Source: a virus
Lineage: Duplodnaviria; Heunggongvirae; Uroviricota; Caudoviricetes
Virus record (IMG/VR): IMGVR_UViG_2737471837_000006
DNA: 7,880 bases
Direction: 5' to 3' (one strand)
A program made the position numbers. The first letter of the stretch is position 1; each line of letters opens with the position of its first letter. Of the stretch, positions 3,001-6,000 are shown in pieces.

Positions 3001-6000
3001 CTGTAAGTTTCTGTTAAAACCATGGGATCTAAACCCATCACGAAATATTTCCTCTGGCGGGCGAGAATCCACTCTATAAACAAAATCCGTAGCATCCGCA
3101 TACCATGAGAAAGAAATAAGAAATAATATAAACATTTTCAACACAATATTTCACCTCTTACTTAAAAATAATAACAACGCCTCCATCGAAATAAATGTAA
3201 GGAATGATTAAAAGTCAATCAGAGAGTTGCTGTCCTCCATGGTTAGCTGACATCTATTTACTCATTTAATTAACCAGAAACATACCACCATCACATCTCG
3301 CGCTAATTAAATAAGAAACACCATGTATCTAACAAAATATTAAAATCAATACGGTCTTTGTTTAACAGGAACAGCCAGAATGTGAAAATATAATCAGAAG
3401 TGTATACTACGGACGTATGAATAAAACAAAACCCGCTCGAAGGCGGGTTCTATTAAAGTTCATGCGCAGACTCACCTCGCGATACAGCTTTGCGAAGCGT
3501 AGCGAAATTGAAGCAGTTTGTGCGTAAAAAATCAAGCTATTTTTTGAGCAAGTGATTCTCGCATGGGAATGTATAGCGCATACTCAGCAACAGCCAACCA
3601 ATTAGCAATTCGCTTTTCACATGTGCTAAAACACCACTCTGGGTGTGCATCATTCAGCAATTCAGCCATTTTGCGCTTAGTCATCCCCCGTCCTTCATAC
3701 CGCTGCTGGAGGATACAAATCAACCCCGGATGATCTGCCAGCACTTCACTAATCACCCGATCAATGCATAGCGCCTCGGCATCAGTACAATGCACCAGCC
3801 AGCTCTTTTGCTTGCCATTGATAATTTCTCGCAAAAATGATTCCAGTTCAGGTTTCTCTATTCCCGCTTTTTTCATTCTGAGCAGGGCTTCATTGATGGC
3901 TGTTTTCGTCAACTTTTTTGACGCCAGCAACTGATTGAACATATTCCCTGACCTACCGCCGCCAATGTACGACCAGCGCCCCCACATACGCAGTTTCCCC
4001 TGTATCCAGACGCTTTCCAACGTATTGAGTCGAAGATGCTCTCCGCTTTTTCCGGTGTTTGTTGGGTAAATCATAGAATGCCTTTCTCCCTCCAGATTTC
4101 TTGTGTGCGGAAAACGCCCTCCGCGTGCATCAGGCGCAATTCGTCTTTGGTGTAATCGCTGATTTTTACCCGTCCGTCGATTAAATCGTGGCATGAGCTA
4201 CAGGCAATCGCTGCCTGCGTATCGTGCGGCTTTATTGCCGTTCCGCACGTCCCCGCCAGCCTGTAATGTGCCAGTACAGATGTTTCAGGATTGTGATTAC
4301 AGTAACCAGGGATTCTGACCTGGCACATCTGGCCCCGCGCCGCTTTACGTAAATCCACCATTACGCAAACTCCAGTAGCTGCGCGGCCACGTTTTCGACG
4401 TCCTCCGGAGACGAGAATTTTCGGCACAGGATCCAGTTCCACAGCACATTCAGTACAGATTTATAAACCTGCTGAAACTCGGTTTCGTCCATATTCGCAA
4501 ACGCGATGGATTTCGCCCGACGCCCGCGGCTACCGTCCGGATAAAAATGCTCGGTGTAAAATCCAGACTGAATGGTTACCCATTCGCGGAAAGCGTCAAA
4601 TGACTTAAGCAATGCCGTATCCCGGGTTCTGCGTATCGCAACGGTATTTAGGTATTGCTCTGCGGCATCACTCAGGGCAGGAGTGTGTTCCCGACCTACT
4701 GATTCGCACAGGTACTCAACGAAGCCTGATACCAGTTCTCGCTCTCGAGGCGTGATCGCCCCACCGTTCGGAGTCCAGTAATCGAATCCCAGTTGCAGGA
4801 GTTTGAAAAAACGCCTGTGGAATGCGTAGTTACGCACACGCTTAAAATCAGCGTGTATCCACTCGCCTATTTTGATTTGATGCAGAAAATCGCAACTCTC
4901 CGGCGTTGCCGGGAGAAGTAAACCAGAAGATGTTTGCTTGACCAGTTGTATATGCGCCATTGCTGTCTCCAATGGCGCTGTAGGTTGCCAGTTGTTCAGG
5001 CTGGCTTACGAATTATAACTCATACCCGAACCACCTTGAAACCGAGCCTTTCCAGGTATTCAATGAATGCCTCGATAGATAAAATTACATGATCATCAGG
5101 AATTAACGTTGCGTAGATAACTTCCCCATTCTCAACGCGCACAGCATAGAGGCCATTTTCACTAAAAATTTCACGCAATTCTTCGATTTTCATCAGCAGA
5201 ATCCTTCCGGATAATTAGCTATCCCCTGTTTGGGGTCCATCCCTCTTCTCCCTGCGCGCTAACTAAGCAATATGATTCTATTTACTCCAAACGGCCCCTC
5301 AAGAACCACAACCAAAGGAGTACACAAAAAGCTAATCAACTACGCTGCACAACAAAAAACCCGCCGAAGCGGGTTAAGTGCGGGTGCGTTGAGGATGCCT
5401 GACACATCAGAGGTGGCGAGGGATTTCTCCCCCGCCAGGTCTCTTACTCCTCAGGTTCGTAAGCTGTGAAGACAGCGACCTCCGTCTGGCCGGTTCGGAT
5501 TCGCACCTCGCAGAGGTCTTTCCTCGTTACCAGTGCCGTCACTATGACGGTTAAACAGATGACGATCAGGGCGAGTAACATCGCCTTTTGCTGCTTCATA
5601 GCCTGCTTCTCCTTGACCTTTCGGTCCGTAAGAGGCTAATCTCTATGTGTCGCATAGATATGGCCTCAGATTAATGTTAAGCGTCTTGCCGGACGCGTAA
5701 TGTTAACTGGGGCTTTTCTCTGTCTGCCTTACGGCGGCATGCCCGAGGCAAACAGCCTCAAGCACCCGCAGCAATTCTACTTAACTCTCGCTTTACAGCA
5801 AACCGTTTTTGCCCGATATGGGAATTCCCATACGGAATGAATTCAGTTCCCCAGGCGATCCATCAAAAACACAACCAGGAAGTAAACACCCACAACAGCA
5901 ATAACAGCCAGAGCGCCTTCCATTACCAGTGAAATATCATCCGACATATTCCCTCCCTTGGTGTGAATTCCGGCGAACGTTTTTACCCCCACCGACAAAT

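What the first reader, a model, noticed from the sequence alone, without database searches (positions are those of the whole stretch)
5350..5801. Apparently complete hok/mok/sok-type type I toxin-antitoxin locus inside the prophage
A HokD/RelF-like 51-aa toxin is accompanied by all expected regulatory pieces: a coupled upstream leader ORF ending in ATGA overlap with hok, a candidate antisense promoter overlapping the hok RBS, a candidate hok promoter, an intrinsic terminator, and 12 bp of 5'/3' end complementarity with one bulge (GGGTGCTTGAGG versus CCTCAACGCACCC), the fold-back that keeps full-length hok mRNA inert. In E. coli K-12 the hokD copy lacks its own mok/sok region and sits behind relBE, so this looks like a more ancestral, possibly functional form. 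It could act in prophage maintenance or phage defence.
Basis: partly seen in the sequence, partly recalled or inferred. Interest (0 to 1): 0.6.

Follow-up and report, generated by a model that had tools for sequence, protein, structure and literature searches.

The report
Ordinary prophage hok/sok toxin-antitoxin locus
This is an intact copy of the well-known hok/sok RNA-controlled toxin-antitoxin module (hokD/hokW type) that most E. coli genomes carry in lambda-like prophages, so it is real but ordinary.

Summary
These are a 51-aa Hok toxin (Pfam HOK_GEF, 1e-23), a hok mRNA leader matching Rfam 'sok' RF01794 (104 bits, threshold 59), a 5'/3' fold-back, an intrinsic terminator, an antisense Sok gene and a short leader ORF.

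The locus is not new. Similar DNA occurs in 4727 of 5426 complete E. coli genomes and is annotated hokD. PHROGs calls the protein 'MokW-like host killing'. The locus is 92% identical to hokW/mokW/sokW of the Stx2 prophage Sp5 (VT2-Sakai). That system was shown in 2021 to be a working type I toxin-antitoxin pair that aids phage release on induction.

The K-12 comparison also holds. K-12 hokD shares homology only from the hok ribosome-binding site onward.

One nuance: the leader ORF here is a 19-codon 'mini-mok' ending in ATGA. In a sample of 81 related loci, 67 had an in-frame 70-codon mok and one had an R1-like overlapping mok. The exact mini-mok allele occurs in roughly 780 E. coli records.

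The biological role of this copy is inferred, not shown. Interest is low.

The parts
5774..5802 (-). hok promoter: weak -35-like TTTGCT/TTGCTG (5802..5796) and -10 TAGAAT (5779..5774), 7 nt upstream of the transcript start G5767
   Evidence: Read. A TAnnnT hexamer sits at the same distance from the GGG start in nearly all of 93 distinct related loci, although the sequence further upstream differs. It is below the simple scan's threshold.
5352..5767 (-). Full-length hok mRNA (about 416 nt)
   Evidence: The 5' end comes from Rfam model position 1. The 3' end comes from the terminator. The fold has z = -7.6.
5756..5767 (-). tac element (GGGUGCUUGAGG), the 5' end that pairs with fbi in the full-length RNA or with ucb in the processed RNA
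   Evidence: Compensatory changes in relatives occur at positions 4 and 12.
5707..5713 (-). ucb / anti-SD (GCCCCAG), which pairs with the leader-ORF Shine-Dalgarno in the closed form
   Evidence: Minimum-free-energy structure of the full-length RNA.
5649..5717 (+). Sok antisense RNA gene (about 69 nt), complementary to hok mRNA nt 51-119, which include the leader-ORF SD and AUG
   Evidence: Coordinates transferred by alignment from the annotated sokW misc_RNA of VT2-Sakai. The fold shows a roughly 12-nt 5' tail, a long hairpin and a UUUU end (-29.2 kcal/mol, z = -4.9).
5613..5642 (+). sok promoter: -35 TTGACC (5613..5618), 18-nt spacer, -10 TAATCT (5637..5642)
   Evidence: Read. The motif TTGCCT/TTGACC-17/18-TAACCT/TAATCT is conserved across Escherichia, Kluyvera and Photorhabdus. 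The homologous -10 region was the target of the promoter-less sokW mutant, judged from primers YO-421/422 in PMC8621323.
5664..5667 (-). Shine-Dalgarno (GAGG) of the leader ORF, 8 nt upstream of its AUG
   Evidence: Read. It is paired with ucb in the closed fold and with dcb in the open fold.
5596..5655 (-). Mini-mok leader ORF: 19 codons (MRHIEISLLRTERSRRSRL) plus TGA, giving an ATGA overlap with the hok start
   Evidence: The allele was found in 13 of 81 sampled loci with a leader. The exact 77-nt stretch occurs in about 780 E. coli records.
5632..5636 (-). dcb (GCCUC), which pairs with the leader-ORF SD in the open conformation
   Evidence: Constrained folds and the Rfam consensus structure.
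5444..5599 (-). hok toxin gene (51 aa, one I9L difference from the common HokD sequence); SD AAGGAG at 5614..5609
   Evidence: Codon changes among 81 copies were 11 synonymous and 2 conservative.
5458..5461 (-). TACG motif at the Tyr47 codon, a candidate TadA A-to-I editing site (Tyr to Cys)
   Evidence: Sequence. Editing of K-12 hokD at the equivalent Tyr is reported in PMC5630033 and PMC12214031. Not tested here.
5382..5394 (-). fbi fold-back element (CCUCAACGCACCC)
   Evidence: It is conserved even in K-12 hokD, which has lost the 5' partner.
5352..5375 (-). Intrinsic terminator (stem 5375..5358, 7 pairs, then a U run)

Best explanation
[quoted passage not shown] It is carried as an accessory gene in the nin-Q region of a lambdoid E. 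coli prophage.

The likely mechanism follows the R1 and hokW models. The anatomy is shown here; the biological steps are inferred.

1. A weak promoter produces a stable hok mRNA of about 416 nt.
2. The first 12 nt of this mRNA (tac) pair with the 3' fbi element.
3. In this closed form, the Shine-Dalgarno of the leader ORF is paired with an upstream box (ucb), so nothing is translated.
4. Slow 3' trimming removes fbi.
5. tac can then pair with ucb, which exposes the leader-ORF start region.
6. In a lysogen, the abundant and unstable 69-nt Sok RNA pairs with that region. This blocks the leader ORF and marks the duplex for RNase III cleavage.
7. When Sok is lost, ribosomes translate the 19-codon leader ORF through the hok Shine-Dalgarno. 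They terminate at UGA inside AUGA and start hok.
8. The 51-aa Hok peptide inserts in the inner membrane and collapses it.

By analogy with hokW-sokW of prophage Sp5, the most likely trigger is prophage induction, and the likely payoff is earlier or more complete lysis and phage release.

My confidence is about 0.95 for identity and anatomy. It is about 0.7 that this copy is regulated and toxic as described, and about 0.4 that help with lysis is its main role.
For: - Toxin and leader: Pfam HOK_GEF 1e-23, PHROG 251 at 8e-33, and Rfam RF01794 at 104 bits against a threshold of 59 over the full model.
- Closed form: tac/fbi pairing appears in the minimum-free-energy fold, with the leader SD paired to ucb.
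- Switch on 3' trimming: forcing the tac/ucb form costs +13.2 kcal/mol in the full-length RNA. It costs only +0.7 once fbi is removed, and the SD/dcb hairpin of the Rfam consensus then forms.
- Covariation: across 19 distinct tac/fbi combinations from Escherichia, Kluyvera, Photorhabdus, Pantoea, Citrobacter and Erwinia, a duplex of 10-12 pairs is always kept. Both-sided changes occur at position 4 (U-A 11, C-G 5, U-G 2) and position 12 (G-C 10, A-U 6).
- Sok: its position comes from the annotated sokW, it has a tail-plus-terminator-hairpin fold, and its promoter is conserved.
- Selection on the toxin: 11 synonymous and 2 conservative codon changes among 81 copies, while the 80 IMG/VR leaders fall into 48 distinct sequences.
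- Homolog experiments: the locus is 92% identical to hokW/sokW. For that system HokW is toxic, SokW from its own promoter neutralises it, mitomycin C removes SokW and induces HokW in a RecA-dependent way, and deletion halves phage yield (PMC8621323).
- Leader ORF length: R1 mutagenesis shows mok must be translated up to the hok SD but not beyond the hok start. R1 mok also has 19 codons upstream of the hok start (PMC9841398).
Against: - Nothing was measured for this copy. There is no transcript, processing or toxicity data.
- Unconstrained folding of the 3'-truncated RNA prefers a local 5' hairpin over tac/ucb, by 0.7-2.3 kcal/mol.
- Chromosomal hokA, hokB and hokC loci did not give post-segregational killing or rifampicin activation, according to bioRxiv 2025.08.07.668861 citing earlier work.
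- The leader ORF stops exactly at the hok AUG. In R1, stop codons upstream of the hok start abolished toxicity, so coupling at this boundary is plausible but untested.
- hokW sits at a different place and orientation in its prophage, near attR. Its induction behaviour may therefore not transfer to this copy.
Confidence: 0.75

Rival explanations
1. The locus is sequence-intact but physiologically silent. It would be a hitch-hiking selfish cassette that is never activated in this prophage and has no measurable phenotype, as reported for several chromosomal hok loci.
For: Chromosomal hokA, hokB and hokC loci failed to mediate post-segregational killing or respond to rifampicin (bioRxiv 2025.08.07.668861). 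Deleting hokW-sokW had no effect on normal growth and only a two-fold effect on phage yield.
Against: The Hok peptide is under clear purifying selection: 11 synonymous against 2 conservative changes in 81 copies. Both promoters and all pairing elements are conserved across genera. The close homolog hokW-sokW is active.
Confidence: 0.15
2. The main role is addiction or maintenance of the prophage, or of a phage-plasmid. Cells that lose the element lose the short-lived Sok RNA and are killed by Hok made from the stable mRNA.
For: This is the founding function of R1 hok/sok (PMC9841398). The VT2-Sakai record annotates hokW and mokW as 'prophage maintenance'. Related copies lie on 70-98 kb E. coli plasmids.
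Against: An integrated prophage is lost rarely and mostly through induction, which kills the cell anyway. Chromosomal hok loci tested did not give post-segregational killing. The hokW study reports a lysis and phage-release phenotype and does not report a prophage-stability test in the sections I read.
Confidence: 0.15
3. The main role is defence of the lysogen against other phages by abortive infection. Host transcription shut-off by an infecting phage would deplete Sok and release Hok.
For: R1 hok/sok on a high-copy plasmid reduced T4 plating by 42% and plaque size by about 85% (cited in PMC8621323). hok genes are about four-fold enriched in prophages.
Against: The same survey found no enrichment of hok next to defence systems. 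The T4 effect is weak and was measured at high copy number. There is no evidence for a hokD/hokW-type copy.
Confidence: 0.1
4. The 2-nt deletion that creates the 19-codon leader ORF has uncoupled hok from leader translation. In this allele the toxin would then be effectively untranslatable, making it a decaying copy.
For: 67 of 81 sampled loci keep a 57-nt in-frame register. One sublineage that carries the same 1-nt insertion as the window restores 57 nt through a second deletion, which hints at selection for that register. In R1, premature mok stops upstream of the hok start abolish toxicity.
Against: Here the stop overlaps the hok AUG, so ribosomes cross the whole hok SD, which is the stated requirement in R1. 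The exact allele is present in about 780 E. coli records and behind several different upstream sequences. Its hok ORF and all other elements are intact.
Confidence: 0.1

Closest known systems
hokW / mokW / sokW of Stx2 prophage Sp5 (VT2-Sakai, AP000422; phage 933W)
   Same: The whole locus is 92% identical in DNA sequence, from the -10 to fbi. The two share the same 5' end, ucb, Sok hairpin, sok promoter layout and fbi, and both encode a 51-aa Hok. For hokW, toxin and antitoxin activity are shown experimentally (PMC8621323).
   Different: mokW is a 70-codon ORF in frame with hokW (57 nt between the two AUGs). The window has 56 nt and a 19-codon ORF ending in ATGA. The HokW C-terminus differs (..VFVDYESEK against ..VFTAYEPEE). 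The terminator after fbi is different. hokW lies near attR on the opposite strand to the late genes, whereas this copy lies in the nin-Q region, co-oriented with Q and the lysis genes.
E. coli K-12 hokD (relF) in the Qin prophage
   Same: The Hok protein differs by one residue (I9L). The hok SD, coding region, 3' UTR, fbi and terminator are essentially identical. RefSeq annotation calls the window-type gene hokD.
   Different: K-12 hokD has relE sequence directly upstream. It lacks the promoter, tac, ucb, sok and the leader ORF, and homology starts 17 nt before the hok ATG.
hok/mok/sok (parB) of plasmid R1, the founding member
   Same: The architecture and element order are the same. In both, a 19-codon stretch of leader ORF precedes the hok AUG. 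They share a GAGG leader SD, a tac/fbi fold-back, a Sok RNA of about 65-70 nt covering the leader start, and a sok promoter that overlaps the hok SD region (Rfam hit; PMC9841398).
   Different: HokW, the close relative of this protein, is only 44% identical to R1 Hok. R1 mok runs on for 70 codons out of frame over hok. R1 is plasmid-borne and has a demonstrated post-segregational killing role.
hokC (gef) / mokC of the E. coli chromosome
   Same: Related genomic hokC-type loci have the same 5' end, GGGTGCTTGAGGC, and an fbi with G-U variants.
   Different: The Sok-target hairpin sequence is different, and the locus is chromosomal and not in a prophage. The in-frame register of mokC is my recollection and was not checked here.

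Membership tests
[quoted passage not shown] | A Hok/Gef toxin of about 50 aa with an N-terminal hydrophobic helix and a conserved C-terminal part | tested here: met
   Pfam PF01848 at 1e-23, 83 bits against a cut-off of 22. PHROG 251 at 8e-33 over the full length. The NCBIfam Hok subfamily model matches at 4e-13 but below its curated cut-off (48.9 against 73).
[quoted passage not shown] | A hok mRNA leader with the conserved sequence and secondary structure (tac/ucb stem, Sok-terminator-complement hairpin, SD/dcb hairpin) | tested here: met
   Rfam RF01794 at 104 bits against a gathering score of 59, E=2e-23, model positions 1-157 of 157.
[quoted passage not shown] | Long-range 5'/3' fold-back (tac/fbi) that closes the full-length mRNA | tested here: met
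   The pairing is present in the minimum-free-energy fold. Only 8 of 2000 shuffled 12-mers bind as well. Compensatory changes occur at two positions across six genera. This evidence is computational only.
[quoted passage not shown] | Removing the 3' end permits a switch to an open form that exposes the leader start | tested here: inconclusive
   The penalty for the open form falls from 13.2 to 0.7 kcal/mol after fbi removal. Even so, the open form is not the predicted minimum-free-energy structure. The real processing site is unknown.
[quoted passage not shown] | A cis-encoded antisense Sok RNA with its own promoter and terminator, complementary to the leader-ORF translation start | tested here: met
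   The locus is homologous to the annotated sokW. Promoter motifs are conserved. The predicted RNA has a terminator-type fold with z = -4.9. Expression itself was not testable here.
[quoted passage not shown] | A leader ORF (mok) whose translation is required for, and coupled to, hok translation | tested here: inconclusive
   A leader ORF with a GAGG SD is present and runs through the hok SD. However, it has only 19 codons and ends in ATGA, instead of overlapping hok. Coupling was not testable here.
[quoted passage not shown] | Hok toxicity, neutralisation by Sok, and a stable mRNA paired with an unstable antisense RNA | not testable with these tools
   Shown only for homologs: hokW-sokW (PMC8621323) and R1 (PMC9841398).
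K-12-type truncated hokD (relBE-hokD) | relE immediately upstream and no promoter, tac, sok or mok leader | tested here: not met
   The window has the full leader. K-12 aligns only from the hok SD onward.

The most novel reading that the evidence does not exclude
The 19-codon 'mini-mok' that stops inside the hok start (AUGA) may be a distinct, naturally selected way of coupling leader translation to hok by termination and re-initiation. Near-identical hokD-type loci carry the leader ORF in all three registers relative to hok: 56, 57 or 58 nt between the two AUGs. That would be a natural experiment showing that only ribosome transit through the hok SD matters, not the Mok peptide. I did not find this register polymorphism described in the papers I read. 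The 2025 Hok survey explicitly avoided analysing mok.
Probability: 0.35. Interest if true: 0.3.

Novelty: already known. Interest (0 to 1): 0.12.

Why it matters
It matters little as a discovery. The family, this subtype, its prophage location and its regulation are all published, and the exact allele is widespread.

Three points still have some use:
- The gene that genome annotation calls 'hokD' in most E. coli is the complete hokW-like module, not the truncated K-12 form.
- The Sok RNA and the leader ORF are left unannotated in the RefSeq records I examined.
- The three natural mok registers are ready-made alleles for testing how leader translation is coupled to hok.

What hok/sok does for a prophage remains an open question, as the 2025 survey also states.

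Tried and rejected
I used the single protein instead.
- An ungapped MAFFT alignment of tac + linker + fbi (A4) put bulged and unbulged 3' elements out of register. It was therefore unsuitable for the count of structure pairs. I counted pairs from per-sequence duplex folds instead.
- The simple promoter scan found neither the hok nor the sok promoter, and its only hit (5302..5275) is unrelated. I relied on positional conservation and on homology to the mutated sokW promoter.
- I first looked for hokW in the nin-Q region of VT2-Sakai and found nothing. It lies near attR.
- I considered whether the 2-nt deletion removes a YUNR U-turn motif from the Sok-target loop. I dropped this because the majority allele lacks a clear YUNR there too.
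- I rejected the idea that the hok ORF is a chance ORF or a decayed pseudogene.
- The plus-strand ORFs overlapping the locus (5272..5469, 5466..5639, 5700..5840) were not examined further. I treat them as incidental to the antisense strand.
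Full report
**What is in the sequence**

The feature lies on the minus strand. A 51-aa ORF at 5599..5444 matches Pfam HOK_GEF at 1e-23 and PHROG 251 'MokW-like host killing' at 8e-33. The only Rfam match in the window is RF01794 (sok) at 5767..5597 on the minus strand. It scores 104 bits against a gathering score of 59, E=2e-23, and covers the full model. The match ends on the hok AUG, so it covers the hok mRNA leader.

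Reading the minus strand gives these elements, in order:
- a -10 TAGAAT at 5779..5774, 7 nt before G5767
- the 5' end GGGTGCTTGAGG at 5767..5756
- a GAGG Shine-Dalgarno at 5667..5664
- an ATG at 5655 opening a 19-codon ORF whose TGA (5598..5596) overlaps the hok ATG as ATGA
- the hok Shine-Dalgarno AAGGAG at 5614..5609
- after hok, CCTCAACGCACCC at 5394..5382
- a terminator hairpin at 5375..5358 followed by a U run

On the plus strand there is a -35 TTGACC (5613..5618), an 18-nt spacer and a -10 TAATCT (5637..5642).

**Is this more than chance?**

The 416-nt transcript folds at -178.9 kcal/mol, with z = -7.6 against dinucleotide shuffles. In that fold, nt 1-12 pair with the 3' element with one bulged C, and the leader Shine-Dalgarno is paired with GCCCCAG at 5713..5707. 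Only 8 of 2000 shuffled 12-mers bind the 3' UTR as well as the real 5' end. The 5' end is also the best partner for the 3' element anywhere in the mRNA.

I collected 80 loci from IMG/VR and 53 from one-genome-per-species contigs. These gave 26 distinct 5'/3' combinations from Escherichia, Kluyvera, Photorhabdus, Pantoea, Citrobacter and Erwinia. In the 19 I counted, a duplex of 10-12 pairs is always kept. Changes on both sides occur at position 4 (U-A 11, C-G 5, U-G 2) and position 12 (G-C 10, A-U 6).

Forcing the alternative pairing of the 5' end with the upstream box costs +13.2 kcal/mol in the full-length RNA. Once the 3' element is removed it costs only +0.7, and the leader SD then pairs with GCCUC at 5636..5632, as in the Rfam consensus. 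The unconstrained fold of the truncated RNA still prefers a local 5' hairpin. The refolding step is therefore energetically permitted but not predicted outright.

**The antisense gene**

The VT2-Sakai (Sp5) record AP000422 annotates three features: hokW, an in-frame 70-codon mokW, and a 71-nt sokW RNA. The window aligns to that locus at 92% identity, and sokW maps to 5649..5717 on the plus strand.

This 69-nt RNA folds into a roughly 12-nt 5' tail, a long hairpin and a UUUU end (-29.2 kcal/mol, z = -4.9). It is complementary to hok mRNA nt 51-119, which include the leader SD and AUG.

The promoter motif TTGCCT/TTGACC-17/18-TAACCT/TAATCT is conserved across the sampled genera. A TAnnnT hexamer also sits at a fixed distance upstream of the hok mRNA start. 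The primers used to make the promoter-less sokW mutant replace exactly this -10 region.

**The leader ORF is not the canonical mok**

Of the 84 hokD-type loci examined, 81 have a leader, and I classified these by the distance between the leader AUG and the hok AUG:
- 57 nt in 67 loci, giving an in-frame 70-codon ORF like mokW
- 56 nt in 13 loci including the window, giving the 19-codon ORF that ends in ATGA
- 58 nt in one locus (phage Rac, MN652886), giving an R1-like out-of-frame 68-codon mok that is annotated as such

Three further loci lack the leader altogether.

Relative to the majority allele, the window has a 2-nt deletion just after the leader AUG and a 1-nt insertion before the hok SD. 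The exact 77-nt stretch spanning this region is found at 100% identity in roughly 780 E. coli records. The identity-band count is 782, and rank sampling shows full-length perfect matches down to at least rank ~660. It is therefore a common allele, not a private lesion.

R1 mutagenesis concluded that mok must be translated up to the hok SD but not beyond the hok start. R1 mok also has 19 codons before the hok start (PMC9841398). A stop that overlaps the hok AUG should therefore still allow coupling, but this is inference.

**Comparison with K-12**

K-12 hokD aligns with the window only from CAGGAGAAGCAGGCTATG onward. Upstream of that point is relE. The coding region, 3' UTR, fold-back element and terminator are retained. 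PMC12214031 states, citing earlier work, that the hok homologs not hit by insertion elements lost components of the canonical system through genomic rearrangements.

**How common and how well known**

Similar DNA is present in 4727 of 5426 complete E. coli genomes, with a median of 2 and up to 10 places per genome. It is annotated hokD. It also occurs in 102 phage records, labelled hok, mok, MokW, gef or 'host killer'.

The best match, strain 06-00048, is 99.4% identical over the queried 491 bases and has a largely similar set of neighbouring genes.

A 2025 survey reports 44,248 Hok homologs and an approximately four-fold enrichment in prophages. [quoted passage not shown]

Takada et al. 2021 reported the following for hokW-sokW:
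- HokW is toxic and locates to the inner membrane.
- SokW expressed from its own promoter neutralises it.
- RNase III and Hfq contribute partly.
- Mitomycin C removes SokW and induces HokW in a RecA-dependent way.
- Deleting the locus delays growth arrest by about 40 minutes and halves the number of released phage.

**Is this copy likely to be functional?**

All elements are intact. Among 81 copies, the hok ORF shows 11 synonymous and 2 conservative (I/L/V at residue 9) codon changes, while the 80 IMG/VR leaders fall into 48 distinct sequences. This indicates purifying selection on the peptide.

I therefore favour a working module regulated as in R1 and hokW. Its main role is uncertain. In my order of preference, the candidates are help with lysis on induction, addiction, abortive infection, or no phenotype.

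In the window, hok is co-oriented with the downstream DUF1367, YbcO, Q, toxin and lysis genes. Early rightward transcription after induction would therefore pass through it and run against the sok promoter. That is a possible route to Sok loss, but it is speculation.

**Verdict**

The only mildly new point is the natural three-register polymorphism of the leader ORF.

Noticed in passing
window 3144..2419 and 2408..1926 (minus strand): This is a pertussis-like AB5 toxin pair. The A subunit matches Pfam Pertussis_S1 (5e-15) and the NCBIfam ArtA model, though below its cut-off (257 against 457 bits). The B subunit matches the PltB-like AB5 binding-subunit model (155 bits against a cut-off of 40). 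The pair sits between the Q antiterminator (4194..3532) and the holin/endolysin genes, where Stx genes sit in Stx phages (my knowledge). Strain 06-00048 has the same arrangement.
   Followed up: partly
window 5461..5458 (minus strand): The Tyr47 codon of hok is TAC followed by G, which is the TadA editing motif TACG. K-12 hokD is reported to be edited Tyr to Cys at the equivalent site, at about 6% (PMC5630033, PMC12214031). Editing would add a second cysteine.
   Followed up: partly
L005-L084, L002 and window 5655..5596: The leader ORF occurs in three registers relative to hok: 56, 57 or 58 nt between the two AUGs. One sublineage that carries the same 1-nt insertion as the window restores the 57-nt register through a separate 1-nt deletion (GATTAGCC to GATTGCC).
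   Followed up: partly
L102 (Acinetobacter idrijaensis, 275-bp contig) and L107 (Xanthomonas pisi, 431-bp contig): Hok coding sequence 93-98% identical at protein level to the window's Hok appears on very short contigs of unrelated genera. This is most simply explained by contamination of those assemblies with E. coli DNA.
   Followed up: no
L112 (Kluyvera sp.) compared with L091/L004 (E. coli) and L133 (Citrobacter youngae): The Kluyvera locus has the same relE-to-hok junction as K-12 but a different Hok subtype (68% identical). In Citrobacter, that same subtype has a full leader. The relBE-hok fusion is therefore either old or has recombined within hok.
   Followed up: no
E. coli plasmid records such as NZ_CP037905.1, NZ_CP019216.3 and NZ_CP196313.1 (70-98 kb): About 400 places on plasmids match the window's leader and hok start at 88-90% identity and are annotated hokD. 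They may be phage-plasmids (one Punavirus record appears).
   Followed up: no
window 5843..5998 (minus strand): A small ORF lies just upstream of the hok promoter. It encodes a hydrophobic peptide (..ALAVIAVVGVYFLVVFLMDRLGN) with no Pfam, NCBIfam or PHROG match. A 35-aa version is annotated as a hypothetical protein in strain 06-00048.
   Followed up: no
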